This document shows, one piece after another, positions 967 through 49,010 of a stretch of DNA of 64,000 nt; position 1 is the first letter of the stretch, and every line of letters begins with the position of its first letter. The notes under the pieces are model-generated. The model did no database searches, was not told the origin of the DNA, and was given only the letters and a program-made list of their open reading frames with translations. The stretch covers positions 6,014,001 to 6,078,000 of the forward strand of contig OX442314.1 of the NCBI GenBank assembly GCA_949358305.1, given 5' to 3'. The position numbers and the translations under genes are program-made. The DNA is from Strigamia acuminata. Its lineage: Eukaryota.

Positions 967-2374
967 AAAAAACACACAACCTAATAGTTGACTTTACGTT
1001 TACATTTGAATTCCTACAACCCTCAGACGTATGCAACCATGATATGAAGGTAAGCTAAAATCATTAGACAGATAAATACCTTACCCTCAACAGATTAGAA
1101 TCCAAACGACTGGATTCCTGTAAATCAGGATTTAAATTGATCAGTAAAGGGGTTAGCAAGAATTCTGTAAACCAGGAATGTGCATTTTCCCATATGGGTT
1201 TGAAAAGGTTTGTAACTGGAAAACTGTACGTGCAGAATGCCAGAGTAGATTGTACCATTTATTCAGCCCAGAAACAATGACATTGATAAATTTTTATTTT
1301 GCACATACAATCGCAGACCAAATACCAGGTGGCCCAAATAAAATCAATTGGCCGGACAGTATGAAGAGGGTTAGTATTGTTGGGCGGATTTTATTTAGGC
1401 CACCTGCAACCGGTACAATAGGTGTACTCAAATGAATTGTGACTGATTTGTCTGAAATTACTTGTTACTTGTTACAAGAAGTGATCCAATATGCATCCAC
1501 ATAATTTTTAATTATCTTATATTATTCAGTTATTCCTAAATAATCCAGCAGAGGAAGTTAACATTCTGGAACCATTGGTGTTAATCTATGGATGGATAAA
1601 TATTGTTGTACTTCGAGAATTTATAGTAACAATTTAAACAATATTATTTACAAAAAATACGGTACATCCTGTTTATAATGAACTTGATTTTATAAAATAG
1701 TCTGTGCAAAGAAATACAAAGCGCAATCCATGTGAAGATAACAAAACTACATATTTGATGTGTAAAAATGCTTGCATACAAAACAATTTATTTAGAAGCA
1801 TTAACTGCAGGTATACTAGCCAATTGACACATTTTACTTTATTCACATCTCACAAGTCAGTGCTGATTTGGTGAATTGGCACGAATGTTTATATCTATCG
1901 AAACATCTATGTTCCCTTGTTTCACATTTATTTTTATTTATTGCCACATTTTATTGTCATCTATTTCTTAATTACTTGTTATAATGACTTCTTAGATTAC
2001 CTTACATGACAGCATCAACTTTACCAGACTGCAACACTACAAAAGATGTTACTACCACTCATCAAATGTACTTCAATAACTACGCCTCGAATCAAAAACA
2101 GTGCAAATGTAAACGACCTTGCGAAAATAAGTTTTACCAAATCATTTTCCGTGGGAGTAAGTTATCAGTCAATTTTTTCACGCTTGCGATCTTTCGATTA
2201 GCTGATAGTTTGACCGAGACCATAGAAGAGAAACCGAAATATCCAATGTCTCAATTCTTAAGCGATATCGGCAGCATTCTAGGATTAGGTTTGGGAATGT
2301 CAATACTATCTTTCTACATTTGCATTCTAAACAGTGTTAATTGGTTCAGAGTCTGTTTGGTAAATCGTCGTTAA
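967..2374 (+). CDS. DEG/ENaC (pickpocket/ASIC-like) channel paralog 1, last four exons only (second module); 5' part not identified in the window
   Basis: Exons 967-1049, 1530-1625, 1701-1810 and 1996-2374 have GT/AG boundaries. They match exons 7-10 of paralog 2 in phase, and the middle two match in length (96 and 110 nt). The Cys-rich thumb (CKCKRPC) and TM2 (FLSDIGSILGLGLGMSILS) are present. Confidence 0.85.
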
Positions 2375-7369: not shown

Positions 7370-10300
7370 ATGAGCTTGGAAGGTACCAAAATAATGGAAA
7401 ATAATAATTTGATGTGGAGATACAGAAAAGGGAAAAGACAACTCCGTCTGACAATTCACCGATTAATGAAGGATGATGCCACCAAACCCAACTGCGATAT
7501 AATTGGATTGGAAGATTTCGTCAACAGTAGGAAACGTTGGAGGAGCAAACATCGCATCCTTTGGCTGCTTTTATTCTCATTTTGCATGTGCATGCTCACA
7601 TATCAGACATACGACAGAATAATGCATTACTTCAGTTATCCTACAGCTGTCGACGTGACGACTAGATCAGAAAATGTTACTTTACCAGACTTAATGGTCT
7701 ATAGTACAGACACAAAGAAAATGAATAGGCTTTGGGAAGAAACTCCTACAGCAAATAAACGAACATCAGAATCCATTTCATGCGATAAGATGCTTGAAGA
7801 GCTAATGAGAATTAAAAACCCAACTTACGATATGGATACACTTTGGAAAGCAACTAACAATACTGATGACATCGACAGTATAAAAATGAAAGTAAAAATT
7901 AAAATAAAATAAAACAATACAGAAATCCAGTTAAAAATCACAATTTAAACTACATTTGCATAGGGATATTCAAATACTACTGTTTTCCAGACGGAAACTG
8001 ACAGTGCATTAGGAATATGCTCAACATTTCGATTTGGTAACTACAAACAAGCATTTATCACTACTTTCATGGTTACACTAATATTATTCATTGACATAGC
8101 TGAAGCTTTTAGCAAATCATTTGTCGGAAAGTTACTGACAGTGAATTTAAATAAGAATTACGACTCGATGTGCCTTGAGCCTCATTATCTGGTAACTTAA
8201 TTAAATCACAATAGCAATTGCTGCATTAATTTTCCTCTTTGCCCTTAGGTTTATCTGACATTCAATAATATTGGAAATCACATTTTTCTATCAATGATGT
8301 ATCCTGGTTCAACAACTAAAATAAATTTTAGTTGTAACAAAGTAAAGTTTTACCTAAAAACTTGAAATTCCTGGGCAACACCTTTTAATGTTTTCATTTG
8401 TAGTTCATATTGCAAAATTCACCAATCAGTTCATGCTCTAACGAAGACGAATACAGAGAATGCTATCGGAATTGCTTACTTAACGAATTTAAGAAACTAA
8501 AATGCAGGTAAGAACATGTGGTGAAAATGCTTCTTGTTTGGTATCACAATTAAACAGCTAATTAAATATATTCTATACAAGATTTCCATTCATGAAGTTA
8601 GATTTGCCACTTTGTCAATTAGCACATGATTCAAAAAAGATGTATTCTCGTGTTACGTACTTGGTTAGATATAAAGAACCAATTACTGATTGCCAATGTC
8701 GACGTCCTTGTCAACATATAACTTTTACACCATATATTGATTTAGGCAAAGCTAATAATGATAAAATGACGAGTTTAACATTAGCAATAACTAATGAGAA
8801 GGTCACTGTTTATGAAGAACGGTACACTTATGACGTTATTGCCTTACTATCAGATTTAGGAGGCAATCTGGGCCTGTTTATTGGACTATCCGTAATCTCA
8901 TTACCTGACATCATTTGGTATTCATATTATGTTGCATCAAACATTCGCCGAAAAAGATCCGTCAACAAGATGAGGCGTCTGTATGAAATGTGCAAAAAAA
9001 TAATTGATGAGACTGAGAAGCCAACCAAAATACATCCAATCTTAGAAAAGTTGAAGATAATATTCGTATTAGTTGTTGCAGGATTTACTTTGTATTGCCT
9101 GCACATTCGTGTCAATTACTACCTCGATGAACCGGGCACAACAATCGTTCGAATAAGTCAACGACGCTACACCGAATTTCCTTCTGTCACAGTTTGTGGA
9201 GAAGAATTCAATGAAGAAATGCACGAAGCCCGATTACACTTACTTAAACAACCCAATAAAACTTGTGACAACATATCACCCTGGCAATTGTTCAACAGCA
9301 AATTGTCATTGCAAAACATCTGGGAATCGCTTAATATTGACAAAATGATTGCTGTTAGCCCTGTTGGGACTGGGAAAGATGTAACTACATTCAATCATAT
9401 TCCTCAAACAAAAACCAAACAATACAAGTTTTATGTTTACAGGTACCAACAACTAATCTTATTTCACTTCCATTTGGTAATTGTTCACAAATTAGAAATG
9501 GTAAATTATAAAATTGGTTTCTGATTTTAGTTACCGGTAATTGATGGTTGTATTTAAATTCTACTTTTGAATTCTGGAATGTTTAATGTTTCTTTTTTTT
9601 CCTGATTTATTTAACTGTAAAAATTGATTTCCTGCAGACGAGTTGGAAAATTAATTCTGGCTTTACCGCTGTCTTACAGATAAAACAAGCACAAAGACCA
9701 CTAAGCTAAACATGCACTTTCTTAGATATCTACATCCTCTAGAAGCTTGTGATCCCCAGCTTAAGGTGTGTAAAAAAACATTTTCACTCGAAATCACCTG
9801 TAATTTTGCAACCAAACTGGAATGTGTTTAATTGACAGTCCCGGTGTCTTTTTAAGCAACATTTTTAAATAAGATGCCGAGAAAGTCTAATTATTCGAGC
9901 ACAAAGCCACAAAAAAAGTTCTTAGGATAATCCTAAGCTGAAATAGTAATAAAAATGGTTCGTGTTTTGTTCGGGCACACATTGCTAATTGTGAATAGAA
10001 AAATAGAAAAAATAGTTTTTGTGCACATAACTAACAGTTTTAATTGTTAATATAAATATTTTGGATTATAATAACACGCAGCTAATCATAAATAATCGGG
10101 AAGAGGAAGTTAACATTTTGGCACCATTGACCATAAACTATGGGTGTGTCAACGACGTAGTACTTCGAGACGTTCAGGTAGAAAATGAAATAAATTTATA
10201 AATGCTGATATTAAGATTCCTTTTACGAAATAGATCATACGAAGAAATACAAAGCACAATCCGTGTGAAGCGGACAAAAGTGCTTATCTCAAGTGTAAAA

Positions 10301-11010
10301 GTGCTTGCTGGCTTAACAATGTATTTCGAGGTGTTAAATGCAGGTAAAGTTCACATTTCTTTTCATACATTAGCTCCAATTTTATCACATCTATTTTCAT
10401 TTTCGCCGTTTTAAACGTCGACTGGGCAGCTAATCCGCGGTCAGTTTTCGGTTGGCAATGGATTATTGCACAAGCATTAACCACCCACAAACTTGCAAGC
10501 TTGTTTTGACATGATAGCGATTAAAGATTCATTTGCTGCATCACCAGATTGAATCTGATCGAAAAACACCTAACCCTTTTCAGCAGATAAACTGCCACCA
10601 TTTGCATCTTTGACCAATCTCCTCTTTGTTTCAGATTACCATACATGGGAAAACCTAATTTTCCAGTTTGTAACACTACAAGTGCCGTAACTACGGCTCA
10701 TTTCACGTATTTAAGCAACCTTGGCTCGAATCAAAAACAATGCAAATGCAAACAACCTTGCAAAAATATTTTTTACAAATTTATTTTTCGGGAGAATAAA
10801 TTGCCAAAAAATAAAGGCCTACTAATAATATTCCAATTTGCTGATAGCTCTGTCGAGATTGTAGAAGAGAAACGGGCATATCCAATATCTCAATTCTTAA
10901 GCGATTTCGGTAGCATTGTAGGACTGGGCTTGGGAATGTCACTTCTCTCTTTGTACAATTGGATTTTAAAAACTTACAATTCGTTTCAGAAACAAAATGT
11001 GAGCTGTTGA
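7370..11010 (+). CDS. Tandem double-module DEG/ENaC channel, paralog 2 (intact, 10 exons, 823 aa, four predicted TM helices)
   Basis: Exons 7370-7891, 7964-8191, 8249-8341, 8404-8507, 8582-9380, 9443-9500, 9680-9765, 10082-10177, 10234-10343 and 10635-11010 total 2472 nt, all introns GT-AG, with no internal stop. Module 1: TM1 ILWLLLFSFCMCMLTYQ, YFSYPT, LPDLMV, GICSTF, CQCRRPC, TM2 LLSDLGGNLGLFIGLSVISL. Module 2: TM1 IIFVLVVAGFTLYCL, FPSVTVC, PFGNCS, CKCKQPC, TM2 FLSDFGSIVGLGLGMSLLSL. AATAAA at 11031-11036. Confidence 0.88.
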
Positions 11011-13338: not shown

Positions 13339-13383
13339 TAATCACTTTACACGTTTTGTATGACACATTGAATGTTTACAACT

Positions 13384-14203: not shown

Positions 14204-14205
14204 CG

Positions 14206-14223
14206 TGGGGGCCTGTCCGGGAT
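14206..14223 (+). promoter_or_regulatory. Primer binding site of Gypsy A, tRNA-Pro-like
   Basis: TGGGGGCCTGTCCGGGAT versus the canonical tRNA-Pro complement TGGGGGCTCGTCCGGGAT (16/18), 2 nt after the LTR. Confidence 0.85.
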
Positions 14224-33044: not shown

Positions 33045-34043
33045 AACTTTTATTTTATTTTGCCACTGTGCACCGGTAAGTACATAATTAATTATAGTGT
33101 TATTCTTACAATAAACCATTGCATAAATGATGTTAAATTGATACACTGGGAGGTTAAATCACCAAACTTTTTAATAAACCGAGTCAAGATAGAAAGAAAA
33201 TCATTTGAAGAGCAATTGCTGTATTAGAATTGCAGTTAACGTGCTGGGACTAAAATTAAATGGAGAGAATCCTCAGACAAGTGCATCTAGTGTTATTTTT
33301 AAAATAATGATTTTTGGCCGTGCGTGTCAAATTAACCATTTGTATTGATTGAATACATATTTTTGTGTAATTGGGACATGAAAGATTTAAAATGTCCGTA
33401 TAAGGATAGCGTCAACGAGTAGTATTTAGAACCTCATTTTGAGTGCGAATTGACAATCCACATCCTGCTTCTTATACCAATTACAACTGTTTAAAATCCA
33501 AATGTAGAGAGACAGCAATGACATTCCCAAACCTAATCCTATAATGCTGCCCACATCGCTTAATAATTGCGATACTGGATAAGCCTGTTTTTCTTCTATA
33601 GTCTCTGTTAAAGTGTTGGCAAATGCAACACCTAGCACTGTAATATGAGCATATTTCAAATCACCAATGTTAAAAATAATTCGGTAATAGGTATTTTCAC
33701 AAGGAGGTTTACATTTGCATTGTTTTTGATTTGCGTTAAAATTGTTAAAGTAGATTAAATGAGCGTTAGTAACGTCCTTTGAAGTGTTGCAAAATGGCAA
33801 ATTCGGTTGTTCTATGTACGGCAATCTGAAATAAACAATAGTTGGGTATGAAATGTTGACCATTAATTAATTAATTAATTTTAATTAGCGTGCATTCACA
33901 ACTAAAAGATTCTGTATGTCTCGCTGGTTGCGATGGGAATGAAGTGTCGTAAAAACACAAAAGCTTCCATACTGCAATGTTTGGATTTGGATTTGTTTGT
34001 AATAAGTGAGGTTAAGTGTTTAGCTTCACTTTGCTACGATATA

Positions 34044-34480
34044 CAGGGTGGTAAAAAAGTCTGTAACTTTACTAAATATTTCTGAACGTGCTGACAATGC
34101 ATCTAATTCAATGATGGTAAAGTATCAAAGTTGGGTGGGGCAATTTTTCGGTGACCCAAAATTTGATCTTCGGATGTTCCATCAAGGTCATTGGAAAATT
34201 ATCGTGGAAACTATTAGACATAGACAGAAATTTCCAATTGTAAACTTGAAACTTGAAACTTGAAACTTGTAAACTTGAAAAAATGACTACTTCTTAAATC
34301 TTTAGGTTGCAATTTTTAAAGTACCAGTAGACACAAGATGGAACATTGCAAGGTCAAATTTTGGGTCAGCAAAAAATTGCCCCACCCGACTTTAATACTT
34401 TACCATCATTGAATTAGATGCATTGTCAGCACTTTCAGAAAAACTTATTTAGTAGAGTTACAGACCTTTTTACCACCCTG
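34044..34480. mobile_element. Foldback MITE, Tc1/mariner-type CAGGGTG termini, intronic
   Basis: ~150-bp inverted arms (CAGGGTGGTAAAAAAGTCTGTAAC.../...GTTACAGACCTTTTTACCACCCTG). TA on the left, AA on the right. Central (AAACTTG)n. Confidence 0.85.
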
Positions 34481-35428
34481 AATAATCAAGCGGTAAGACC
34501 AATATACTGTATATCGAAGCTGAGTGTGTCATTACGCGTCATTATGTTGGCACTGTCATTGAGTCCGTCGTGCAAAGCTAATTGATAAAATCGGAGGTGG
34601 AGTAAAGAATTGAAAAATCTGAAATACCTGCAGTTAACATTTTGGAATAAATTGTTTTGGATACAGGCCTTTTTGCACTTGAAATGAGCAGTTTAATTTT
34701 TTTCACATGGATTATGCTTCGTATTTCTCCGTATAGTCTATATTGTTAAATTAAAGTTGGTTAGCATAATCACACAACATAATTTGTTTAATTTGTTACC
34801 TTGACTACTCTAAGTCCAACAATATTCATCAATTCATAGTGTAAATATAAAGGTGCCAAAATGTTGACTTCATCTTCCGGGTCATTTAAGAATAGCTGTG
34901 TACAGTAGTTCTTTGATTAAGAGTCGCCCTCAAATAATAGCGGGGGCTATAACTTCGAGGGTGCCTACAATTCCAGGCTATTATTCCGACTACATTTATT
35001 TGCAAACCCACGTACCGCAAAGTCAGAAATTTAAAAAAAAATAAGGTTTAACTTCTTTTTTTTTTAATTTGCGCAACTTGTATAAACATACAGGCTATGG
35101 CAGTGGTTCCCAAAATCGAAGAAATGCTGTATTATTTTATTTGCGTTCCTTCCAGTCATCGACGACAAAAGGAAAAGGAAACAATAATTTTGTTGCCATG
35201 TGTCAATTTGTGTTTTTATTTTTGTGTACGGGGATTTGCAGAATTGATGCGCCCTAAATATTTAATCCCACCTTTAGCTGCGGGTGGCATATTTTGGGAG
35301 CTCGAATAAAAAACCCAATTGCAGTGGAAATATCTAAGTGCGAAGTTTCGTCTGAAAAGTGAGAATCAATTTTCAGTTGCATCCAGGGATAAAAGTAAAA
35401 CAAAATGTCATTGCAACGTTATCAAAAT

Positions 35429-36665
35429 GGGTCCCATTTATTGATCCACTAAATTTCCTTGGATTTCCACTGAAAAAAAACTAATTCTCCCACTTACTGA
35501 AATTTCCACCAACGCTCCTTTTTTGTGCCACTAAATTTATACACTAAAAAAAAACTAAATCTTCCACTAAAATCAAATTTGGAAAGAAAAAACTAATATT
35601 ACCACTACTACTTTTACGTTTTTTTTTTTTTTTTTTTTTTTTGTGCTGCAGCTGTGCGAACGTTTGGCTAACGTCGAGGACGACCAACCCTTCTCCCGCA
35701 TGGTCTACGAGCGCCCCAACAGTCGCCCGCTCCTGCAACCGAGTCCCCGCCAAGGCCCGAGTCCTAGTCCCCAGTTCTAGTCACGTGTCGGGACCCAGTC
35801 CCAACTAGACCTCGGGGCCCCTCGCCCTGGCCATAGTCGTCCATCTCTCGCTCGTAGACCATGCGGGGAGAGGGTTGGTCGTACTGCTCAATAGACAAGA
35901 ACAAGTTCCCTCACCCCACTTCTGGTGACAAAATTGTACGACGGCGGCCACATCTCGCCGGGCGAAGGCTGGTGTCTCCCCGTTCGTCGACTCCCGCCGG
36001 TCCTAGTCACGTGTAGGGACCCAGTCCCAACAAGACCTCGGGGCCCCTCGCCGGCCGCAACATCTTCATGGACGACTATGGCCACGCAAATGCCCACGAC
36101 GACACACCACCTTCGTTTGTTGACTCCTGCCGCTCCCCGATGAGCCGGCGGACTCCCCAATTGTTGGAAGCTCCGCAAGGCGCTGCAGCAATTGGGGAGT
36201 CTAGCGACCACGCCGTGGATTATCGGGGAGCGGCGGGAGTCGACGAACGAAGGTGGTGTGTCGTCGTGAACATCCGCGTGGCCATGAGGATGGACCCGAT
36301 GTGCATGCCGAAGGCGATGTTGTGGCCAGCGAGAGGCCCCGAGGTCTTGTTGGGATGAGGGAACTTGTTCTTGACCTATTATTGAGCAGTACCTAAGTAG
36401 AACGTGCCTTTGGGCGAGAAAAGGAAGCAAGGAAGACCATCGAAAGCCAGTAAGGCCTTCCTTTTGTAATAAAGAAATTAGTAGAAATAGTGTATGTACT
36501 TAGTTTTTTATAGTGGGGAAAGTCAGTAGTGGAAAATTTAGTTTTTTTAGTGTATAAATTTAGTGGAACAAAAAAGGAGCGTTAGTGGAAATTTCAGTAA
36601 GTGGGAGAATTAGTTTTTTTTTAGTGTAAATCCAAGGAATTTTAGTGTATTAATAATATATTCCC
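35429..36665. mobile_element. Non-autonomous Mutator-like (MULE) element with a GC-rich palindromic interior
   Basis: 9-bp TSD TATCAAAAT (35420-35428 and 36666-36674), GGG...CCC ends, AT-rich TIRs of about 140 bp, no transposase. Confidence 0.88.
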
Positions 36666-38641
36666 TATCAAAATCAATTGGTGATGTGCTGCTAAGGTCC
36701 CACGCCGGCAAGGGCAACCGTGCCTAGTGCCGACTTTGCTCCTCTCACCATTCACCACTGGGAAGACAGCCAAGCCTGTTGGTATTTTATGTCACCTGGC
36801 TAATTGTATTGTAAATCCCGAATGAGGGTCTCCCACCGCCAGGGCGAGCTGGGTGTAATCACATGGACCAATCACGTTGTCATGTGACTTCCGGTCACTT
36901 CTTGTATCGAGACAATGGCGTGCGGTTCGTGTTCGGAGTGTGTGCGCGAATAAACGAACTTTATCTTCAACAATCAATGCGATCGTTCTCCATCCATTTA
37001 CAACAAAGGGTTATGGGCACCAGGACGTTCAAATGCGTGAGTTTCTAGTCTTTTGCAAGACATTTCCGTGCGTTTTTGGACACTTGACCGCTGATCGGAC
37101 CACGTGAATTTGGGCCTATTGAAATTTCGTGGTAGATATAAGTTTGGTATTTGTTCAAATGGCAGATCAAGAATCAACGCAGATTGAAAAGTTGGAGGAC
37201 GATAATTACGCCACATGGGCATTTAAGGTGCGTGTATTCCTCCGAAAATACGAATGGTGGACGGTCATTGTGGACGAGCCACCATTATCATCCAGATGCT
37301 GCCGAAGGACTACTACAGCATCCCGAGAGCATTCGACATGTGCGACGACGACGAGATCACGATGATAAAATTGCGGCACATGATTTTGCAGGAGACACGG
37401 CAGAAGGGCGACCGCATGAACGGCAACAATCAGGGCGGTGAACGCGACAGTGAAGGAAACAGCGAGCAGAGCGGTGAACGCAGACGAGATATGAAGCACA
37501 TGAAGTGCTACAACTGCAAGAACCTCCGGCACATCGCAAAAAATTGTCGAAGCCAAGCGGGAATCAAAAACGAGCACGATGCAGACCACAACAAGCCAAA
37601 GCGGAACGTGAATAAGGAGCAGCAGCCAGACGCGACCGTCAGGGCTGTGAAGACTAACCAATTTGTTTTTCAGGTTAAGACCGAGGGACGAGAATGGAAC
37701 CTCCACTCAGGAGCGACACGACACCTGACGGCAAATCGGGATTTCTTTGAGACGTTTACGGCCAACGACGGAAGTTGCAAAGTAACGCTGGCCGAAGGTC
37801 GATAAATTTCCATCCTGGAGAGCGCAAACGTGCGGTTAACGATGGACGATGCGGATACAGTCGCAAGGGACGTGCTGTATATTCCCGATTTGTGCGACAA
37901 TCTGATTTCTGTGCCAAAACTGGACGATGCGGGACTGTGAATTGCTTTTGGGGGCGGAGTGTGCACGATTTCAAGCGGGGATTAAGTGCTGATGACTGCC
38001 ACAAAGATGGGAGACGTATACATGGATTGAATGTCGAGACGGTGTGGTAATCCCAAATTACTACATAAAGGAAATTCCTTAAATCTAATAATTTTATGTG
38101 AGTCTAATTTGAGTACCAAAAGGATTGCAAGAATTATCCAGGCACTACAGGATGTAGCCCCTATCTTGTGTGGGACACAAGATAAGATCTAGGGACTACA
38201 GGATGTGCTACATCCTGTTAGCAGTGAGAGCAGCTGCTAAGAACTCAGTCTAAACCTGAATCTGAACCTGAAAACACCTCCTGAAAAACACACAACTGAA
38301 ACTACTGAAAATCATTGTTTGTTATGGGAGAAACTTCACTTTGGACTCTGGACTCACTTCTGAAATAGCACAACTAGCTATTTCAGGAAACATAATTGGT
38401 AATTCTCTTCCCAACAAGAAGAGAGGGATTACACTCTTCTCCAAGTAAGAGTCAGCTCACACTCTTTGCTGAAAAGAGTCAAGATTCTCCAGTCGCCACG
38501 GCTAGGACGCTCGCCCATCGTCGCAACCAACGTTGGGTAGAAGGAGGGAGAATCAACACGTTGCCGAACGTAAGCAGATCTAGTTTACGGGATTTCCCGA
38601 CTAAGACAGCGGAATTCCGCTTGCGTTTGTATTCCGCTCGT

Positions 38642-38956
38642 ATGAGTGGAAATATTCCGTTGGAACCAATTCCCGAGACGTACGAAGACGCCACGGACGA
38701 GATACAGCCAGGACCGGCATATCTCGAGATAGTAGCAGTCCCAGACGAGCCACAGCCCGCCAGGACGCATACGAGGACCGAAGCGAGGTTGGACTTCAAG
38801 TTTGACGTCCAAGCGAACTCCATCGCCCACGCTGAAAGATTAGATGCGATAAGAAGATTTCGGACGGAATCGATAATCTTCATCGGCAGTGTATTTTTCC
38901 TTATTTCACTTTTCCTAATTATAAGTTATTTTGTCGTGAAATCATATATTAATTAA
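38642..38956 (+). CDS. LTR-encoded 104-aa putative membrane protein with a C-terminal TM helix (5' LTR copy)
   Basis: ATG 38642; acidic Pro-rich N-terminus, then RRFR, then IIFIGSVFFLISLFLIISYFVV and a 5-aa tail. The frame is open back to 38396. Confidence 0.55.
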   Translation: MSGNIPLEPIPETYEDATDEIQPGPAYLEIVAVPDEPQPARTHTRTEARLDFKFDVQANSIAHAERLDAIRRFRTESIIFIGSVFFLISLFLIISYFVVKSYIN

Positions 38957-39303
38957 TCTTTCTATTTCATACTGTTCTCAAAGTCTGGAAAACCCAGCAT
39001 TGTAAATTAGCATTTATTCATATTTTATTGTAAGATAATTCCGGGTCGGAATTATCCCTATTTTTATATCAAAGTATTTTTATTAAAAGTCAGAGAGTTA
39101 AATTATAAAAGTTAGTAATTATTTATATTATATGTAAGTCTTTTTAAAAGCAATCCTAGCAAGCCCGAGTATAACATTTTAATAATATTATATTCGAGGT
39201 TTGTTACACTTGGGGGCCTGTCGATTTGAACTAAAAATTGTTAATTTTAACGGGACTCTCGACTTTCTTACTGTTTCTTTCTTGCACCTTTTATTATAAA
39301 AAA

Positions 39304-42300
39304 ATGCCGAGAAGAAAGAGCTTTATCTCTACGAAAAAGTATCCGACGCGTCAATCAGGACCACCGACGGACAGCCAAGCGCCAGATCAAGATATGGAAG
39401 TGGATATTCCACAAGTACCTGTAATAGTTGATCAGGCGCAAGGAGCGGTCGGAGGCAACGTAACAACGCCTTCGCCGCCCAAATTAACACATTCACCGCC
39501 AAAATCGGTTGAATTATCTGGAGAACCTGTGTTGCAACAAGTGCGGCCGAAAACTCCGGAAGTGACGGCAAAAAAGCCGCCAGACATTTTGGCGCAGCAA
39601 AAATCGCCAAAATCGCCAAAATCGGCGACGAAAGAGACTGAAACTTCGTCGTCAAAAATTCCACGCTCAATTTCACGACCACCGTCACGTAGAAGTCACA
39701 TGTCGGAAGCGGATCGTGAATTGTACGAAAAAACACTGGCCAACGTGAACAAAGTGGGCTCAGTGTACAAGCAACAATCGTCCAGTGAACGAGACGCGGC
39801 CGAAGTTTCGTTAATGGACTTAATGGACATTGTTGAGGACAGAGTACGTGAACGACCACTTATTCGACGCCAACCAGGCGAAAGGCTTGTGGACGCCTAC
39901 CGGAGAAGCCTCAGTGCAATTCGGGCAGATATGGCAGACAGAGCAGGTGAAGCTTTCGACACGGAATCGGCCCGCGTAGAAAGTGAAAAGGGCCTCTCAC
40001 CAAGCGAAAGAGACATTCGACGCCGTGAAAGACTAAAAAATTTCAAGCGTGATGACGTTTGGGTCGCCTTAATGAGTGAAGAACAAGCAGCCGTTCGCGC
40101 AAAAAATCAACAACGAGAAGTTGATAAAAGACGCCGTGACAGCACAGAAAAATTTGCAGAAAATTCCGTTGAGTGGGTGCGTAACGAAAATAATCGTATC
40201 CTGTCCGGAATGAAACGTCTACGAGAAGAGAGAGACATGTTGGAGGCAGAGCAACAAAGATTGGTGGAAGAAAAACGTGAAGTCGAAAAACGTAAGCAAG
40301 AGGCCATTACAGCAATAGAGGCAGAAAATGAGCAGCTTCGTTTGATCACCTTTCGCGCTGAACAAGACGCGGAAGCGGTGCGACGACACTTACGCAGAAA
40401 TCAATTCTCTCAAGACATTCCATACTCTGCATATGACGTCACGATTAGTGAACTACATGAACGTGCAGGACGACAACAAACCGATGAAGAGTCGGAAAGT
40501 CCGTCTAAAAAAAAGAGGGGGGAGGAGCCAGTACCTGGAGAAAGGAGAATACAGCCACCCTCACCTGCACAAAATCAAAATTTAATTGATATGTTAAATC
40601 AACGAAATTTGCAGCCACACGGTCAGCCAAAAAATAGTGATATGCAGCCAATGGAAATAGATACAAATTTCAGAAGTGTAAGACTGACAATGGACATAGA
40701 CATTCCAGTTCGAGCAAAATGCCCATACACGGGAGATGATCTCGTAACAAGGCAAGGAAATGTGCAAAATATTCAAAACACTCCAAATAGAAGGGAAGTG
40801 CGTCGAGAAAGGCAGCAGACAACCGAAAATCGACCAAATTGGCAAAATCTACCGCCAACTCGACCAAAGGCACCAATATTGGGAGAAAGAGCAAATTCAC
40901 CTGTGTCAATAATTCGACCGGAACCACAGTATGCATGGGAACGTCAATACAATAGGCAAGAAGGTGAATCGAGCAGAGAAAATCCGTTTGGACGACCAAT
41001 ATTGAGTCCACCAGAATATGAAGACTCGGAAAGAGCAAGAAATAATCCTTTTCTCACTCCACCAAGAGAGAGAGACCAGGAAGTGCCAAGAAATGAGTAT
41101 CAGCTGCCACAAGGATTTAAACAGCCAAAGGAGGAAACAAGAAGTTTCCAAACATACGTAAATCCATGGCTGAACAGCGCAGCAAATCAGCAAAGAGAAT
41201 TTCCCCAAAGTCAAGAAGGAGGATTCACGCATCATAACCGAGGATTTCGAGATTTTAATGCGCCACCATCCTATGACAGAGGAAATCCTCAACAGTCGCA
41301 ACAAGAAAATAATAATTTTCAGCGACAACAGAGAAGTGATAAATTCTCACAAAATAATCCAAGATCAGATAATTTTCGACAAGAACAAAATTATCACAGG
41401 ACGAATTTCGAACCACGTTGTGGACAGCAACAACAGCAAAGGACAAACAATCCATTTGCTGAGCAACTTCCAGAACAAGGAGCGACAGCACCGACTCCAG
41501 ATGCACAATATTGGGAGCAATACATCAAAGATCAAATTGATTCCAAATTGGCAGCGACAGAAGTCGATGAAGCTGACGAAGCTCGCCAGAGAAGGTTCGA
41601 AAAATATCGAGCAATAAACTGGACACACGTTTGAGCCAGAAAGTCAAATTAAATGGGACAGAATTTTGCCAGATATATTTGATGGAAATTGGCATGCCGG
41701 AACACAATTTCTGGAAGAAATGGTGCGACTAGCCAGAGCAAGCGGTGCGAGTCCATATTTGACGTTAAAAAAGATTGTTCCAAAAGCAGTATCCGATAAT
41801 AGGGGGTTTCATTATATGAATGATTTTGCAATTTTGTGATTTTGCATTAATCACAAAATCATTATTTTTTGATGCCTCCAAAAATGAGTTTACATTGAAT
41901 TAACCCAGTCAATTTTGCAATTGTGTGATCTGGACAATTTTGTGATTTTTGAGTATTGTCATGTGATATCTGTTCTACCAATCACATTCACATTCACTAA
42001 AGCACAAAAGAGTAAAAACACAAAATCCCAAAAACATCTAAAAGGTAGTTTTTGTGATTTTGATAAGAAGTGATTTTGAGGCTTGTGAAACTCAAAACAA
42101 AATGGAGGCATCCAAGCTCTATCTAAGTGGCCAACTTGTATCCTTGTATATCATCAAAATGCTGATGCATCCATGACTGTATAACAGCTAGGAAACTCAA
42201 TACTTCGATTCGGGTAAAAAAAAGTACCGATTCAGGGCGATTCAGGGCGATTTTAGCGGGTGCCCGAATGGAAATTCAGGCGGAAATGTTCGTCGCGTAT

Positions 42301-44424
42301 CGTTTTTTATTGTTTTCTATGTCAAGATGAGCTCGGAAAATTATGGAACCAAGCTCATTTTGAAGAGGAGACAATTCTGCACAAGCCTGTATTTTTTATT
42401 TTTTGATTCGGGCGAGGAAAAGTGCCGATTCGGGCCATCTTAGCGGGGGACCGAATGGGAAAATTTGGAAATTTGGTGCAGAATTTGGATTCGAGATTCG
42501 ACCATGACAAAACCAAAAATTCGTAAAATTAACCGAATGAAATGTTTAAAACAGGTTTCCAGAGAAGAAAATCCCGCTGAAAACGATGGTACAGATAACT
42601 TTTTGATCGGATTAACCGTTGATTTTAAATTTTGGAAAAAACGATCTTTTTTGGGTTGATTTATAAGAAAAAGTTGGAAAAAGTGGTTGAATAATAAAGG
42701 AGGACAAAATAGCAGGTTGCAGTGGTTTGGGCCAAAATTGAATTGGCTGGATTGGCGTTGGGTTTAGGTTAACTTTTGGGTTTGATTGTGTTTGGGTATT
42801 GGCCAGATTGGCATTGGTTTTGGTTTGGTGTGGTTTGGGTTTGGGTTGCATTATTATGGGTTTGGTTTAGTTTTGCAAAAATTTATTTTATGATTTGGTT
42901 GTATACATTTGTCTGATCTATGGCTTTGGCTTTGTGGGTGAACAGCTAGTATTTATTAAAATGCACCTTATTAAAAAATATTTTGTTCCATCACACAAAT
43001 AAGAACTAGTTTTTTTGCATCACATTTTAAAATTGGTTGGATATAACTATAACCTAATATGGTGGATAGGAAGTCACGTGACTATTTAAATAATTGCAAA
43101 ATTGCAAAATTATGAGATTGTTTTTGAAACTAATTATTAATCACAATTTGTGATGGCCACTTGGATTGAGTTTGGCTGCTGCCATTTTTGCCAAAATAGC
43201 AAAACTACCTTTGATTTTGTGATTGTGTATTTTTTCTGTTTTGTGTTTTTGCAATTATGCACATGATTGGTAGAACTGATATCATGTGACAAATCCAAAA
43301 GTGCAAAATTGCTAAAGTTGCAAAATTACAAAATTGCTTAATTAATGAAACCCCCTAATGCAGCTGATTGGTTCTACGAGCAAGGATTCCAAGATTGGGA
43401 TTCGTTCGTAAAAGCATTTTTGACAGAATATGGCGAACCAATCGAGACTCTATTGTACCATTGGGATAATTGGCAACAATATAGAGGAGAGGATTTACGA
43501 GCGTACTTACGACGAACAGAGGATCTCCTCGCCAAATTGCCATACAAAATGGGCGATGCGTCGCATGATAGACAATTTAGAAAAGGCTTGACTCAATATT
43601 CGAAAAATATATTGATGTCAGTAAATGCACCCAACCCAGGGTCATTCAAAAAATTAGCCACATTCATGCGAGCGCACCAAACAAAAATCGACGAACGGTT
43701 TATAACGTATATGACCAACGCCGATCGAGAAGCTATGAAAGAGCTAAGCAAGAAGCAGTCAGAAGCAGCTTCCGGAGGTACGAGACGAATGAAACCGCGA
43801 CAATACATTCTCCCACCTTCATCAAATACGCCAGCTGAACGTACAGTACCAGTTGACCCATCCAATCCGCACCCACCACCCAAAAGTGCAGTCAAAATGA
43901 CGGCAAAGGCAATAGTGGAAAGGTTGGAAATGGAAGATGAAGAAGAAGTGCCAAATGAGACAAATTGGGCACAGGAGGAAGTAGAGTCAGAAGTAAATGA
44001 TTTATTAGAAGGAGCTCACGCTTTCTACACAAGAAATAACACGACAGCTCCAAAATATAAACCATCACTGCAAGGAAGGACAACAAATCCGTTTACTCGT
44101 CCAGCAGCAGCAGCAGCGCCCGTATCTGCGCCAGCTTCAATGCCAGCCCAAGCTGCAAAGCCGACCACAGCTTCAAATAACTTCACGAAGGTGATGGAAA
44201 GATTTCTAAGTCAACCTTCAACTTCAACTGCACCCCTGCCTACAGGAGCGGTTCCCAAGCCTACACCGCCAGTAGTCAAAGCAACGCCAGAGAACTCACC
44301 TTGCAACAATTGTCAGCAATTAGGACATTGGTCAAGGAACTGTCCCCAACCGAAGAAATTCACGAAGGAGGACATTGAGCAGATAGTAAAATCACTGACG
44401 GAGCTCGTTCAAAAAAACATGTAG
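39304..44424 (+). pseudogene. gag: Gag of Gypsy B, disrupted by a frameshift (~41617-41630) and a TIR-element insertion (41801-43356)
   Basis: Reconstructed IKWDRILPDIFDGNWHAGTQFLEE...AVSDN|AADWFYEQ aligns with Gag A IRWQHYIQTRFDGSWKAGDRFLDE...GSAREWYQ. CNNCQQLGHWSRNC knuckle. Confidence 0.88.
41801..43356. mobile_element. Non-autonomous TIR DNA transposon with 3-bp TSD (PIF/Harbinger-like), inserted in gag B
   Basis: Perfect 14-bp TIR AGGGGGTTTCATTA/TAATGAAACCCCCT and TSD AAT. Inverted subterminal blocks (e.g. 41957-41985 versus 43263-43291) and many TTTTG(C/T)(A/G)A motifs. Removing it restores the gag frame. Confidence 0.9.
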
Positions 44425-44458
44425 GCGCGGACTCTCGAAGCCAAGAGCAGCCCGCGCC
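44412..44458 (+). promoter_or_regulatory. Predicted -1 frameshift signal (gag-pol) of Gypsy B
   Basis: A_AAA_AAC at 44412-44418, a 5-nt spacer, then stem GGCGCGG/CCGCGCC. The -1 frame is open into pol. Confidence 0.82.
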
Positions 44459-47400
44459 CACGTGTAACTCGGAAACCGGTGCAAAAGGAGAAAAGGCAGT
44501 GGAACAAACAAAAGAAGTGGAAATTTCAGAAGAAGTTAAAATAAATGACGATAAACTGGAATCTCCAGAATGCAAGTTGGAAGTGAAGGAAGAAATCAAA
44601 GCAGAAATTCAAAATATAGATGCATCATATTTCACCAAAGAAGTAAAAGCAGAGCTGGAAAAAATGGAAAAACCGACAGAGTTGCCAGCTACAGTCTTTT
44701 GGTGCAATGTGAAAAAAGATTTTGAGGAAACACCGACATTAAGCGAAGAAATAATGTCGATGAAGAGTGAATTCATAACATTGGACGCGATGTTTGAAGA
44801 ATTACCTCAGTTCTCAGGCGAAGAAAAATACCGTCTAAGGCGAAGTGACATCTTGGTTTCCAACGACGAAATCATGAATGGTCTAACGACGCTGAGAATA
44901 ATTACGAAAAAAGGATCCATAGTAACTATGTTGGATTCAGGGGCCAACCGGAGCTACATCACGATGCCTCTAATCAAGAAAATGGAATTGGAAAAGAAAA
45001 TAATTCCAGGAGACTCAAAAGCAGTTGTATCAACTGCAGATGGAGATGTAACACCCGTTGGACACATCAATTTGTCATTCACGTGGTCTCATGGTGTAAA
45101 TAATCATCATTTCATAATTTTGCCGCATCAGTATTCCTTCATTCTCGCTGGAAATGATTTTATGAAAAAATTAAATATTCAGCCAAATCCAGTAACGGGA
45201 GGATGGAATTTTATTGCAAATGTGCCAGCGCCAAGACCGTACATTGCGCAAGATGTGCTGGAACGCTACGAAGAGAAATTAGAGCAGCCAACATCATCAT
45301 TTATGACATTTGTGAAAAGGACAGATTATAAAACATTCCAAGCTCGACTAAAAGTTGGAAATGCGATCGCAACATTGACTGAAGAAGCAAAATTAGAATT
45401 AACTGAAGCAAAACAGTTAGAAAAGGTGTTACGCAGACATGAAAAGATTCTGACAAAAGTACCAGGGAGAACACACGTGACACAACATAGCATTGACTTA
45501 GATACAGATAAGCCAATAAGAGTGCCATTTCACAGCTGGAATCCCCAGAAACGTGAAATTTTAAAGCAAATGTGCACAGATTTGAAAGAAAAAGGCTATG
45601 TGTCAGATGCAATCGGCGATTACGCAACAAGGATAGTCCTTGTGATGAGGCAAGGATCGGACCCTCGTCTCTGTATTGATTATCGTCCGATAAATGAACA
45701 CACCAAATATGATCCACCGCAAATGCCGACAATAGACGAAATTTTGCGTGAATTAGGCGAGTTCAATTGGGTCTCGACAATAGACTTAACAAAAGGGTAC
45801 TGGCAGATTGAACTAAGGCCAGAGGACCGCCCTAAAACAGCTTTTTGGAGTCCGATCGGACGTCTCATGTTTAACGTGATGCCGTTCGGTCTGGTCAATG
45901 CGCCCACGACATTCCAAAGAATGATCGAAAAAGTTTTGGGAGACGCATACAGGATGTATGCGTGGGCATATTTGGATGACATTGTCATTGTTTCAAAAAC
46001 ATTCAAGGAACACATACAGCATGTTGACAATGTTTTGACCAAATTGAAAAATGCTGGATTACACGTAAATCCAGAAAAATCAAAGTTTTTCAGAAAAGAA
46101 CTTTCCTTTTTGGGCTACAAGCTTGGAGTTAATGGGCTCAGTGTGGACCCAAAGAAAGTCTCAGCAATCAAAGACTTTCCAGCACCAACGGATCTCAAAA
46201 GTTTACAAAGATTCCTTGGAATGGTGAATTTCTTTCACCGACTGCTAAAGAATTTGGCAACCACTGCAGAGCCATTACGCCCACTGCTAAAAAAGGAAAC
46301 AGAATTTGTGTGGACTGAAGTTCATCAAAAAGCATTTGACGAAATTAAAGCAGCACTAACCGACTCAGATACGCTAAAGCTGCCAAACCTATACAAGCCA
46401 TTTATTGTGCATACAGATGCCAGTCAAAAAGGACTTGGAGCGGCACTTATGCAGGAGCAGCTAGTCGATGGTCAAATGATAGAAGTTCCGTGTGTTTACG
46501 CGAGCAGAAGCCTTCAGCAAGCTGAGAAAAATTACAGCGCTACGGACTTAGAATGTCTCGGCGTAATCTGGGCACTACGGAAATTCCGTCCATATTTAGA
46601 GTTTACGCACTTTACAGTGCAAACGGACCACCAAGCACTCAAGTGGTTAATGATGTTAGAAGAACCAGCCGGACGTTTGGCAAGATGGCAGATGGAACTT
46701 ATGAGTTTCAACTTCAAAATAAATTACATCAAAGGGCCATCAAACGTCGTAGCTGACGCATTATCACGAGCGCCAGTAGATAATTTGGATGAACCAGAGA
46801 TCTACGACGAGATTACGTCATACTGCCCAACAGCAAATGGACAATGGTCATTCACAAATTGGAACCAACTTCCACGTCAAGATCGCGAGCCAACTCCTGA
46901 AGAAAAAGAAGAAAAATTCATAACATATTGGTGCCAATCACTCAACACCAAAGATGAGGAGTTTGAGCCAGATCAAGAAGAAGAAGATTGGAAATATATA
47001 CCCAATACAGAAAATAAAATGATGAAAGCATTTGTCGCCAGAGTAACAGAACAATTAGATTGTGCGCCACCTTCGCGACAAGACTTTATTGATCATCAAA
47101 TCCGAGATAGACAATGTCAACAAATGCGACATTTTCTAGAAACACAAGAACTTCCACCACAAGTTAGAACGCCAATAGAAAAACAAATTTTCCGAAAAAT
47201 GGCAAATCAACACATTGTGGAAGACGGATTACTACTTCGATTCCAACCCACTCTTTCCGACGAATTAGGAGATGATGGGAGAGCGATGAAAGTAGTAGTA
47301 CCAAAGACTTTACGTCACAGAGTCTTATGGTTAATGCACGGCCATCCGCTGGCAAGCCATTGTGGAATTTCTCGCACATTATATCGCATGCGACGAATTT

Positions 47401-48734
47401 ATACATGGTCAGGAATGAAAAGAGACGTGGCACGCTTTATTAAACACTGCCCACGTTGCCAGGCATGTAAGCCACGCATTAAGCCAAAAATTGAATCCGC
47501 AGAAATTGGGCCTTATGCACCATTTGAGTGTCTCAGTATCGACCTCACAGGCCCAAAACCACGAACAGATCGCGGAAACACATACATCTTGGTAATTGTA
47601 GATGTCGCAACAAGATGGCCAATTTTTTATCCAATGTCAAATCCAACAGCGGTAAAAATTGCAAATTGCATCTACGATGTATCAATGAGATGGGGATTTC
47701 CCCGCAAATTATTGTCAGACAATGGCCCACAATTTAAAGCCAAAGTCTACAAAGAATTTTGCCGAAAATTTAAAATTGTGCCGAAATTTACGTCCCCGTA
47801 TCATCCTCAGGCTAACCCAGTAGAAAGGGTTAACAGGGACATAAAATATATTATTTCGATTTATTCAGATCTTCACAATAAGTGGGATGAATATTTACGC
47901 GAAATAGCATTCAGTATAAAAACCACTGACACCCGTGGTAGAGGCTATTCGCCAGCCTATTTAAGTTGCGGGCGCGAATTTCGAGTGCCATGGGACCCGC
48001 GAATATTGGATGATATGCTGCAAATCGACCCGCAAAATCCTCATATTTACGTGCAAAAATTGGAGCGCATCATTGGTGACACATATCAACACATGATGGC
48101 GCACATCGTCGATTTCCGAGAAAGAGTAAAAAACAAGAAAATTTACGGAAAATTTCAAGATTTCCGAGTCAACGATCTTGTGTGGCGAGAAAGTCACGTA
48201 TTATCAAATGCACAACAAGGAATTTCGGCAGGATTAGCTGATAAACGCACAGGGCCGTACGTCATCATGCAAATTCATCAAGGAGGCGCGGCAAAATTGA
48301 AAAGATTAAAAGACAACAAAATCTTTGGCTCAATTCATTTAACCGAATTGACTCCATATTTTCCCGAATTTAATCAGGAAATATGGAAAGAAAATCAATC
48401 TGCAAGCGACATAAATGCAGAAGTTGTCAACACACTTTATGACGAAGTCGCGACCCCTCCAAATGATGAGACAGCGCCTGTAGAAAACAATGGAGCGCAT
48501 TCCACACCAGAGTGTGAAGTCCAAGCCACTCCATTCCCACCTGTCAATAATGTAGAAATCCGTCAACAAGTGGACGAATTTTTAAAAAGGAGGGAGGAAG
48601 GGGTGAGAAGGAAAAATAGAAATAAATTGCGCAAAAAAGATAAAGTGGAAAATCCACACGAAACCAGTGAAAAACCGACTCTTAAATATAATTTAAGAGA
48701 TCGAGCAAAAATCCGAAGTCCCCAGTATTTATAA
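44415..48734 (+). CDS. pol: Pol of Gypsy B (PR-RT-RNaseH-IN), uninterrupted
   Basis: MLDSGA, RLCIDYR, YLDD, HTDAS, TDHQAL, HGHPLASH..CPRC, IDLTGP, SDNG, NPVER and GPY; colinear with Pol A. Confidence 0.96.
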   Translation, partial: KHVGADSRSQEQPAPTCNSETGAKGEKAVEQTKEVEISEEVKINDDKLESPECKLEVKEEIKAEIQNIDASYFTKEVKAELEKMEKPTELPATVFWCNVKKDFEETPTLSEEIMSMKSEFITLDAMFEELPQFSGEEKYRLRRSDILVSNDEIMNGLTTLRIITKKGSIVTMLDSGANRSYITMPLIKKMELEKKIIPGDSKAVVSTADGDVTPVGHINLSFTWSHGVNNHHFIILPHQYSFILAGNDFMKKLNIQPNPVTGGWNFIANVPAPRPYIAQDVLERYEEKLEQPTSSFMTFVKRTDYKTFQARLKVGNAIATLTEEAKLELTEAKQLEKVLRRHEKILTKVPGRTHVTQHSIDLDTDKPIRVPFHSWNPQKREILKQMCTDLKEKGYVSDAIGDYATRIVLVMRQGSDPRLCIDYRPINEHTKYDPPQMPTIDEILRELGEFNWVSTIDLTKGYWQIELRPEDRPKTAFWSPIGRLMFNVMPFGLVNAPTTFQRMIEKVLGDAYRMYAWAYLDDIVIVSKTFKEHIQHVDNVLTKLKNAGLHVNPEKSKFFRKELSFLGYKLGVNGLSVDPKKVSAIKDFPAPTDLKSLQRFLGMVNFFHRLLKNLATTAEPLRPLLKKETEFVWTEVHQKAFDEIKAALTDSDTLKLPNLYKPFIVHTDASQKGLGAALMQEQLVDGQMIEVPCVYASRSLQQAEKNYSATDLECLGVIWALRKFRPYLEFTHFTVQTDHQALKWLMMLEEPAGRLARWQMELMSFNFKINYIKGPSNVVADALSRAPVDNLDEPEIYDEITSYCPTANGQWSFTNWNQLPRQDREPTPEEKEEKFITYWCQSLNTKDEEFEPDQEEEDWKYIPNTENKMMKAFVARVTEQLDCAPPSRQDFIDHQIRDRQCQQMRHFLETQELPPQVRTPIEKQIFRKMANQHIVEDGLLLRFQPTLSDELGDDGRAMKVVVPKTLRHRVLWLMHGHPLASHCGISRTLYRMRRIYTWSGMKRDVARFIKHCPRCQACKPRIKPKIESAEIGPYAPFECLSIDLTGPKPRTDRGNTYILVIVDVATRWPIFYPMSNPTAVKIANCIYDVSMRWGFPRKLLSDNGPQFKAKVYKEFCRKFKIVPKFTSPYHPQANPVERVNRDIKYIISIYSDLHNKWDEYLREIAFSIKTTDTRGRGYSPAYLSCGREFRVPWDPRILDDMLQIDPQNPHIYVQKLERIIGDTYQHMMAHIVDFRERVKNKKIYGKFQDFRVNDLVWRESHVLSNAQQGISAGLADKRTGPYVIMQIHQGGAAKLKRLKDNKIFGSIHLTELTPYFPEFNQEIWKENQSASDINAEVVNTLYDEVATPPNDETAPVENNGAHSTPECEVQATPFPPVNNVEIRQQVDEFLKRREEGVRRKNRNKLRKKDKVENPHETSEKPTLKYNLRDRAKIRSPQYL

Positions 48735-49010
48735 ATAGAAATGGCGTCACTCGGAATCCAGGATATGGATGACGTCATGGGATAGGGACTGAACGGAAAC
48801 AAAACGTCACTTTTCCGTTCATCGCCAAAGTAGAAACACACAAGTGTTCGTGTCAGCTAAAAAATCGGATTTATCAACAGAAAATAGGATTTATCACTGA
48901 GTAGTAAGTTAAACTGAAGTGGATTGCCACAATAAATATATAATGACAAACAAACTTCGTCGAAATTAGGAAATTATCGGAATTTCGGACGAAAGAGGCG
49001 AACGCCAATT

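What the first reader, a model, noticed from the sequence alone, without database searches (positions are those of the whole stretch)
7370..11010. Naturally concatenated two-subunit DEG/ENaC channel gene family
Seen: one spliced 823-aa frame holds TM1-ectodomain-TM2 twice. The join (TM2 GGNLGLFIGLSVISL, ~40-aa basic linker, new TM1, YYLDEP, FPSVTVC) lies inside one continuous exon (8582-9380), so it is not a gene-prediction merge. The same linker plus second TM1 is open in paralog 3 (54220-54730), and paralog 1 has a matching second module. Established: DEG/ENaC/ASIC/ppk subunits have two TM helices and assemble as trimers. Inference: a covalent dimer cannot form a simple homotrimer. It may fix a 2+1 stoichiometry with a separate monomer, link neighbouring channels, leave one module outside the pore, or be cleaved at the RRKR-containing linker. 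I do not know of a characterised example.
Basis: partly seen in the sequence, partly recalled or inferred. Interest (0 to 1): 0.9.

Follow-up and report, generated by a model that had tools for sequence, protein, structure and literature searches.

The report
Centipede ion channel with fused subunits
A centipede gene encodes two different DEG/ENaC sodium-channel subunits head to tail in one reading frame, likely made as one four-helix protein that would fill two of the three seats of a sensory channel, an architecture shared by many unstudied centipede genes and echoed by three-subunit chains in shrimp.

Summary
Observation confirmed, with corrections. The gene (7370-11010) holds two complete DEG/ENaC modules; TM2, a 36-residue basic linker and the next TM1 lie in one open exon. 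A missed 63-nt intron makes it 802 aa in 11 exons; both modules then share the intron phases 0-1-0-0-2, so two genes fused. Nearest relatives are unnamed Strigamia maritima proteins: 15 named ones carry the junction. First (A) and second (B) modules form separate groups in trees: one old fusion, then expansion as a unit. A keeps a canonical pore; B mostly has a bulkier residue at pore position 3'. Likely A and B take two seats of one trimer, a separate subunit the third; untested. Paralog 3 is a pseudogene; the RRKR site is not conserved (2 of 22). Independent three-module chains occur in decapods as continuous frames. Ten literature searches showed no description of natural concatemers. No transcript evidence exists for this gene. 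The scan had not noted this before.

The parts
7370..7891 (+). Exon 1: cytosolic N-terminus, TM1 of module A (Trp kept, His of the HG motif absent), start of ectodomain
   Evidence: ATG behind an in-frame stop; Pfam ASC 4-96, E 1e-10
7964..8036 (+). Exon 2 (module A, G-x-C-x-x-F motif)
8037..8099 (+).
   Evidence: GT..AG ends; stop inside the matching 60-nt intron of paralog 3, same phase and column as an intron of module B; segment absent in T1JEH2. Inferred, no transcript
8100..8191 (+). Exon 3 (module A)
8249..8341 (+). Exon 4 (module A)
8404..8507 (+). Exon 5 (module A, start of the cysteine-rich thumb)
8582..9380 (+). Exon 6, the fusion exon: end of module A, linker, start of module B in one open frame
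   Evidence: 51% identity over 95% to S. maritima T1JEH2
8850..8891 (+). Pore motif of module A: D0', G3', G6', G-L-S
   Evidence: sequence
8937..9044 (+). 36-residue basic linker, predicted cytosolic (11 K/R, 4 D/E)
   Evidence: same length in T1JEH2, T1JEG4, T1JGJ4 and paralog 3
9045..9199 (+). TM1 of module B, YYLDEP and FPSVTVC
   Evidence: Pfam ASC 26-79, E 7e-5; own TM1 profile E 3e-10
9443..9500 (+). Exon 7 (module B)
9680..9765 (+). Exon 8 (module B)
10082..10177 (+). Exon 9 (module B)
10234..10343 (+). Exon 10 (module B)
10635..11010 (+). Exon 11: thumb, TM2 of module B (D0', S3', G6', G-M-S at 10900-10941), short tail, stop
   Evidence: Pfam ASC 324-450, E 2e-13
967..2374 (+). Paralog 1: last four exons of a B-type module (967-1049, 1530-1625, 1701-1810, 1996-2374), open; the rest lies outside the window
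33426..56102 (-). Paralog 3: same exon plan, pseudogene (103-nt frameshifting deletion in the fusion exon near 54730, TAA near 34694); about 18.8 kb of nested LTR elements in one intron

Best explanation
The gene encodes two different DEG/ENaC subunits (A then B) in one reading frame, likely translated as one 802-residue chain with four membrane helices, whose two modules would sit side by side as two of the three subunits of one cation channel, with a separately encoded single-module subunit likely filling the third seat. Shown: the frame, the two modules, the shared intron plan, the family, the separate A and B groups, the pore differences. Inferred: (1) two neighbouring paralogous genes fused when the last exon of A joined the first coding exon of B, once, early in this centipede lineage, and the pair then multiplied as a unit; (2) the short basic linker is cytosolic and ties the end of TM2 of A to TM1 of B, which in solved DEG/ENaC trimers are neighbours because the lower half of TM2 swaps under the adjacent subunit; (3) B diverged at pore-lining positions (3', the acidic residue after G-x-S, the pre-TM1 loop) because a pore holds only one B; (4) by analogy with the nearest solved relatives, antennal sensors of another centipede, and with its birth-and-death pattern, the family likely serves sensory detection.
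For: One open fusion exon. Intron phases 0-1-0-0-2 in both modules, 4 of 5 at the same alignment column, with A and B only 17.5% identical. 39 of 157 rows (156 database proteins plus this gene) show a TM2-then-TM1 junction; after dropping one overlap artefact, one model with no linker, one with a 260-residue gap, five near-copies of one shrimp protein, four repeat-type and five non-centipede rows, 22 are A-B type, with cytosolic linkers of 31-59 residues, all basic. 12 of these 22 are named S. maritima entries, 1 is a frame on a 1,154-nt ENA contig, 1 is this gene, 8 were not looked up. Trees: 16 A rows one group (97/69), 16 B rows one group (97/88); 10 and 10 rows under a mixture model 92/88 and 98/93. 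Contigs of diverged copies carry the junction with a same-length linker (2 of 10 joints; pieces on both sides) and none of the 12 indel rows shown, of 17, falls between 8651 and 9353. Linker dN/dS about 0.34 against paralog 3 over 44 codons. Pore: Gly at 3' in 22 of 22 A modules and 70 of 77 single-module rows, Ser/Asn in 7 of 8 B modules; acidic residue six places after G-x-S in 16 of 22 A and 1 of 7 B (the last two counts by hand). AlphaFold2 of the S. maritima relative T1JD34: pLDDT 74.7, pTM 0.69, two full folds, four long helices; best fold matches BRTNaC1 and PDPNaC1. TM2 swap between neighbours: PMC11026163, passages. Single-module S. maritima relatives exist near the A/B groups (T1IGW0, T1JAY0). 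In decapod chains one linker is only about 6-14 residues, which forces adjacency there.
Against: No transcript or protein evidence for this gene. S. maritima entries are automatic gene models, many broken or chimeric (T1JEH2 has a doubled N-terminus, T1IS61 joins A's start to B's end), and only models that kept the junction could be counted. The two sequencing runs may be the window's own sample. The third subunit is not identified; nothing here shows co-expression or binding. The structure is of a relative at about 25% identity, its linker has pLDDT under 50, and coordinates could not be inspected; reading pTM 0.69 as a fixed A-B pose is my inference. Engineered ASIC1a dimers conduct without a partner, with lower-mass by-products (PMC4529235). 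A's support is modest (SH-aLRT 69), and A and B are not resolved as sisters. B's pore changes also fit a module that has left the pore. One neighbour in the window is a pseudogene.
Confidence: 0.5

Rival explanations
1. The chain is real and assembles without a separate partner: the third seat is taken by a module of another tandem chain, so three chains build two linked trimers (A-B-A and A-B-B) or channel clusters.
For: Engineered ASIC1a dimers gave typical currents alone (PMC4529235, passages). Tandem genes are many, and no partner is identified.
Against: Linkers of 31-59 residues would hold two trimers very close; two B modules with Ser/Asn at 3' would crowd a constriction that FaNaC1 lines with Gly (PMC11026163). 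Both points are inference.
Confidence: 0.2
2. Module A forms the pore (as A3 or with partners) and module B hangs outside it as a tethered sensor, chaperone or regulator.
For: In this gene B lacks the TM1 Trp, a pre-TM1 loop and the acidic residue after G-x-S; B is more variable in TM2 than A.
Against: B keeps D0' and G-x-S/C/T in 8 of 8 complete TM2s and its thumb cysteines; an unpaired DEG/ENaC module would expose trimer interfaces (general knowledge).
Confidence: 0.12
3. The two modules are not made as one protein: transcripts stop, start or splice inside the fusion exon, giving single-module products.
For: No transcript seen; a 44-codon frame is open by chance about 5% of the time; this linker has Met codons, one weak donor (8892) and one weak acceptor (9043), and an AATAAA at 9255.
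Against: No stop follows TM2 of A; linker length is identical in four close relatives and paralog 3, two of which (T1JGJ4, T1IYF0) have no Met in it; A and B groups mirror each other in the tree; the last-exon/first-exon fusion explains the intron plan.
Confidence: 0.1
4. The chain is cut in the linker, releasing two ordinary subunits at a fixed 1:1 ratio.
For: R-R-K-R in this linker; engineered concatemers shed smaller products (PMC4529235, PMC10329638, passages).
Against: R-x-K/R-R in 2 of 22 linkers, absent in paralog 3; the linker is predicted cytosolic.
Confidence: 0.04
5. Two chains form a four-module A-B-A-B channel, as two-repeat potassium channels do.
For: A two-module chain fits fourfold symmetry; one study argued for ASIC1a tetramers (PMC4529235).
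Against: The nearest solved relatives have three chains per entry and PDPNaC1 is a homotrimer (PMC12714832); three-module natural chains in decapods fit a trimer.
Confidence: 0.04

Closest known systems
[quoted passage not shown]
   Same: Best sequence hits for the fusion exon (E about 1e-10) and best fold hits for a family member (E 7e-18 and 6e-15, 20-22% identity); compact ectodomain, TM2 motif.
   Different: Single-module proteins of 431 and 421 aa with two helices, three chains per structure; here two unlike modules share one chain. No ligand, heat or proton response can be transferred at this distance.
Uncharacterized Strigamia maritima proteins T1JEH2, T1JEG4, T1JGJ4, T1IYF0 (close) and T1JD34, T1ITL7, T1IPM9, T1J963, T1JBK6, T1JF12, T1ITA9, T1IQZ3 (distant)
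   Same: Same A-linker-B plan; A and B modules group with those of this gene.
   Different: Automatic models without a functional name, many partial; 20-55% identity. They show the sequences have been public, not that the architecture was described.
Vertebrate ENaC heterotrimer and insect pickpocket heteromers
   Same: Unlike subunits share one pore; expanded, fast-evolving sensory families are known in mites (PMC5203786, passages) and insects (PMC8438182, passages).
   Different: Their subunits are separate genes. PMC8438182 notes 46 insect PPKs (8%) with three to five predicted helices but, in the passages seen, no fusion. That alpha-ENaC has Ser at 3' like module B is recalled, not tested.
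Engineered ASIC/ENaC concatemers (PMC4529235, PMC10329638)
   Same: Head-to-tail subunits in one chain are functional and fix subunit order.
   Different: Laboratory constructs that keep both termini plus an added linker; here the join is natural, the termini are trimmed and the modules have diverged by position.
Natural repeat-fused channels of other families (K2P, TPC, Nav/Cav); recalled
   Same: Subunit fusion followed by asymmetric divergence of the pore.
   Different: Their repeat number divides the fourfold symmetry; two does not divide three.

Membership tests
DEG/ENaC superfamily (Pfam PF00858), each module | ASC profile match | tested here: met
   Exon-wise hits for both ends of both modules; the start of B alone scores 22.5 bits, just under the 23.6 cut-off; the joined protein was scanned only with my own profiles
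DEG/ENaC superfamily, each module | TM1, cysteine-rich ectodomain, TM2 | tested here: met
   Hydropathy and cysteine positions; AlphaFold2 and Foldseek of relative T1JD34
DEG/ENaC superfamily, each module | G-x-S filter, D0' and G6' in TM2 | tested here: met
   A: D, G, GLS; B: D, G, GMS
DEG/ENaC superfamily, each module | Pre-TM1 T/S-x-h-H-G motif and TM1 Trp (common, not universal: 43% and 66% of insect PPKs, PMC8438182) | tested here: not met
   A keeps Trp and Gly but not His; B has neither motif
Canonical DEG/ENaC subunit | One module, two membrane helices per chain | tested here: not met
   Two modules in one frame; this is the novelty
DEG/ENaC superfamily | Trimeric cation channel | not testable with these tools
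   Needs electrophysiology and a structure
BRTNaC1/PDPNaC1-like myriapod channels | Nearest solved relatives by sequence and fold | tested here: inconclusive
   Top hits, but at about 20% identity and not placed in my trees; orthology not shown
Gene-prediction merge of two genes | Stop, intron or intergenic DNA between TM2 and the next TM1 | tested here: not met
   Open, coding-like, length-conserved linker inside one exon

The most novel reading that the evidence does not exclude
Arthropods have repeatedly fused DEG/ENaC subunits into single chains: centipedes use an expanded family of fixed A-B pairs that combine with an exchangeable third subunit as a combinatorial sensory receptor system, and decapod shrimp have complete three-module, single-polypeptide channels with position-specific modules, the threefold counterpart of four-repeat Nav/Cav channels.
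Probability: 0.45. Interest if true: 0.9.

Novelty: new variant of a known kind. Interest (0 to 1): 0.78.

Why it matters
DEG/ENaC subunits are treated as two-helix monomers, and multi-module entries in databases are easily dismissed as prediction errors. A natural two-module chain breaks the match between repeat number and threefold symmetry and so makes subunit order, stoichiometry and pore asymmetry directly testable without artificial linkers. The position-specific pore changes point to which residues a pore needs only once or twice. The family appears large and fast-evolving in a blind soil centipede lineage, so it may be an overlooked class of sensory receptors. The three-module shrimp chains found on the way would be ready-made single-chain channels for asymmetric mutagenesis.

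Tried and rejected
No whole genome is held for the window, so no genome-wide copy count. RNA search: no RNA holder listed. Summed contig depth is not used as a copy number; 1,049 and 812 contigs laid at 85% only indicate many related copies. AlphaFold2 of the fusion exon without an alignment was useless (pLDDT 33.9). Complex prediction of module A with module B of T1JD34 gave no verdict (score 0.07, mark 0.34, alignment not used). The word-index search with the family alignment returned only 3 proteins among 7,854 candidates. The ESM Atlas returned generic ASC clusters of 378-412 aa for the fusion exon and did not answer for T1JD34; the VIA re-alignment was not obtained. The first FastTree run put T1ITL7's B module beside its A module; this was traced to the chimeric model T1IS61, which was left out of later trees, along with most distant single-module rows (66 and 30 of 154 modules used). 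The hydrophobic stretch at residues 202-228 of the 823-aa model is not a fifth helix: it lies in the 63-nt intron. Two-module models from Centruroides (XP_067131715) and P0022, and the Polypedilum three-module model, have modules that group with each other and may be recent fusions or merges; not used as support. Met counts included helix ends and are used only for the two linkers with none. Earlier scan notes on Naegleria ENaC-like genes concern separate neighbouring genes, not fusions.
Full report
Observation. The ten exons proposed for 7370-11010 splice at GT-AG junctions into one 823-codon frame with a single terminal stop. The stretch 8582-9380 is stop-free and holds TM2 of a first DEG/ENaC module, a basic linker, a second TM1, YYLDEP and FPSVTVC. 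Pfam ASC matches the start of module A in exon 1, its end and the start of module B in the fusion exon, and the end of B in the last exon. Profiles for TM1 and TM2 that I built from 67 single-module proteins give the order TM1-TM2-TM1-TM2. A 266-codon open frame is far beyond chance (about 2e-8), but the 44-codon linker alone is not (about 0.05), so conservation had to be tested.

Corrections. 8037-8099 is very likely a 63-nt in-frame intron: paralog 3 has a 60-nt GT-AG intron with a stop at the same place, and the S. maritima relative lacks the segment. The product is then 802 aa from 11 exons, and a spurious hydrophobic stretch disappears. With it, both modules have five introns in phases 0-1-0-0-2, four at identical alignment columns, although A and B are only 17.5% identical (54 of 308). 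The fusion exon is thus the last exon of one gene joined to the first coding exon of another. Paralog 3 (minus strand, 56102 to about 33426) has the same plan but a 103-nt deletion that removes most of TM2 of A and shifts the frame, and a TAA in a later exon: a pseudogene. Paralog 1 shows four open B-type exons; its linker is outside the window.

Relatives. The fusion exon finds Strigamia maritima T1JEH2 at 51% identity over 95% of its length, one of 2 hits among 1,656 candidates, so the window likely comes from a centipede of that kind; the species is not determined. A full HMMER search with T1JEH2 gave 338 proteins at E 0.001, of which 150 were listed. Of 157 rows examined, 39 show TM2 followed by TM1. 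Twenty-two are of the A-B type, with basic linkers of 31-59 residues; the distance from G-x-S to the conserved Pro after TM1 is 80 residues in this gene, T1JEH2, T1JEG4 and T1JGJ4, and 79 in T1IYF0. I looked up sources for 30 proteins: 12 A-B and 3 repeat-type junction carriers (T1JEH2 included) are S. maritima entries and one is a frame on a 1,154-nt ENA contig. These are automatic models and several are broken. In two public runs of unknown kind, possibly the window's own sample, 334 and 275 contigs lie on the fusion exon at 80% or more; some carry both sides of the junction with a diverged linker of the same length, and none of the 12 indel rows shown (of 17) falls in 8651-9353. Against paralog 3 the linker has pN 0.34 and pS 0.62 (dN/dS about 0.34, 44 codons); the wider stretch gives about 0.53.

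History. In a 66-row tree all 16 first modules form one group (97/69) and all 16 second modules another (97/88); under a mixture model with 30 rows the values are 92/88 and 98/93. Several subfamilies recur on both sides. This fits one old fusion and later duplication of the pair. Whether A and B are sisters is unresolved. A separate S. maritima subfamily (T1IU28, T1IZL2, T1ITG7) has like modules repeated two to three or more times (100/100), a likely second origin. Single-module S. maritima proteins (T1IGW0, T1JAY0, T1IGY6) lie nearby and are candidate partners.

Pore. Using the FaNaC1 numbering seen in PMC11026163 (passages), position 3' is Gly in 22 of 22 A modules and 70 of 77 single-module rows, but Ser or Asn in 7 of 8 complete B modules; paralogs 1 and 3 also have Ser. 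The acidic residue six places after G-x-S is present in 16 of 22 A and 1 of 7 B modules (hand count). B of this gene also lacks the TM1 Trp and a pre-TM1 loop, yet keeps D0', G6', G-x-S and its thumb cysteines. R-x-K/R-R occurs in 2 of 22 linkers, so cleavage there is not a family trait.

Structure. AlphaFold2 of T1JD34 with a 30-row alignment gave pLDDT 74.7 and pTM 0.69, two full folds and four long helices, with a poorly predicted linker. Best fold matches are BRTNaC1 and PDPNaC1, then ASIC1 and FaNaC, all single-module chains; the fusion exon finds the same two first by sequence. They are antennal heat and proton sensors of Scolopendra (PMC9974506, PMC12714832; passages).

Mechanism. In solved trimers the lower half of TM2 completes a helix of the adjacent subunit, so a short cytosolic tie from TM2 of A to TM1 of B suits two neighbours in one channel. 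B's pore changes suit a subunit present once per pore. I therefore favour A-B plus a separate third subunit (0.5), over linked trimers from tandem chains alone (0.2), B outside the pore (0.12), no single product (0.1), cleavage (0.04) and a four-module pore (0.04). Engineered ASIC1a dimers conduct alone (PMC4529235, passages), which keeps the second option open. None of this is shown by experiment, and a sensory role is an analogy.

Beyond the window. Three-module chains occur in Halocaridina rubra (KAK7028032, KAK7013173; three ASC stretches each) and penaeid shrimp (XP_069977668; unnamed Logan frames of 1,001, 1,005 and 986 aa on contigs of 3.3-4.2 kb, which leaves little room for introns). 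Their modules group by position across species (95/87, 73/87, 97/93; long branches flagged), and the second linker is about 6-14 residues in two of three. The penaeid middle module has a much reduced ectodomain. Polypedilum KAG5672929 has three like modules.

Novelty. Ten full-text searches (I saw listings, for the larger ones only part, for example 25 of 86 and 20 of 564) showed no title or abstract start on natural DEG/ENaC concatemers. Passages were read in PMC5203786, PMC8438182, PMC9974506, PMC12714832, PMC7067487, PMC5952958, PMC11026163, PMC4529235, PMC9822975 and PMC10329638; term counts only in PMC13372173 and PMC4244043 (no pickpocket, amiloride or sodium channel in the S. maritima genome paper's main text). 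No supplements were read, subscription papers are not covered, and Vizueta et al. 2020 was not seen; a remark there could lower the novelty. The scan's own notes hold nothing similar. Verdict: a real, likely undescribed architecture within a known family; interest 0.78.

Noticed in passing
P0131, P0152, P0158, P0159, P0095, P0103 (database proteins): Three-module DEG/ENaC chains in penaeid and caridean shrimp, modules grouped by position, one linker about 6 residues, penaeid middle module with a reduced ectodomain: candidate single-chain channels that deserve their own study.
   Followed up: partly
P0007, P0008, P0009, P0020: A second S. maritima subfamily with two to three or more like modules in a row, all with canonical pore motifs; likely an independent, younger origin.
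   Followed up: partly
P0023, P0150, P0022: Three-module pickpocket-like model in Polypedilum vanderplanki with linkers of about 21 and 29 residues; two-module models in Centruroides and an unnamed source that may be merges.
   Followed up: partly
window 13381-32640: Gypsy-type LTR element with identical LTR starts (13381, 32222), interrupted by an intact-looking copia-type element (LTRs 17473, 23707; 1,658-aa frame with an MBD-like Pfam hit); long frames at 14283-17435 and 29380-32004 have no Pfam match.
   Followed up: partly
window 36827-53259: Second gypsy-type element (identical LTR starts 38042, 51867; extra frames 39235-41631 and 49243-51819 without Pfam match) nested in an older copia-like remnant, all inside one intron of paralog 3.
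   Followed up: partly
window 61111-61587: 159-codon open frame without a Pfam match.
   Followed up: no
window 8508-8581 and 55007-54932 (minus): The intron before the fusion exon is visibly conserved in sequence between the gene and paralog 3.
   Followed up: no
window 5080-5330: A+T-rich array of short degenerate repeats between paralog 1 and the gene.
   Followed up: no
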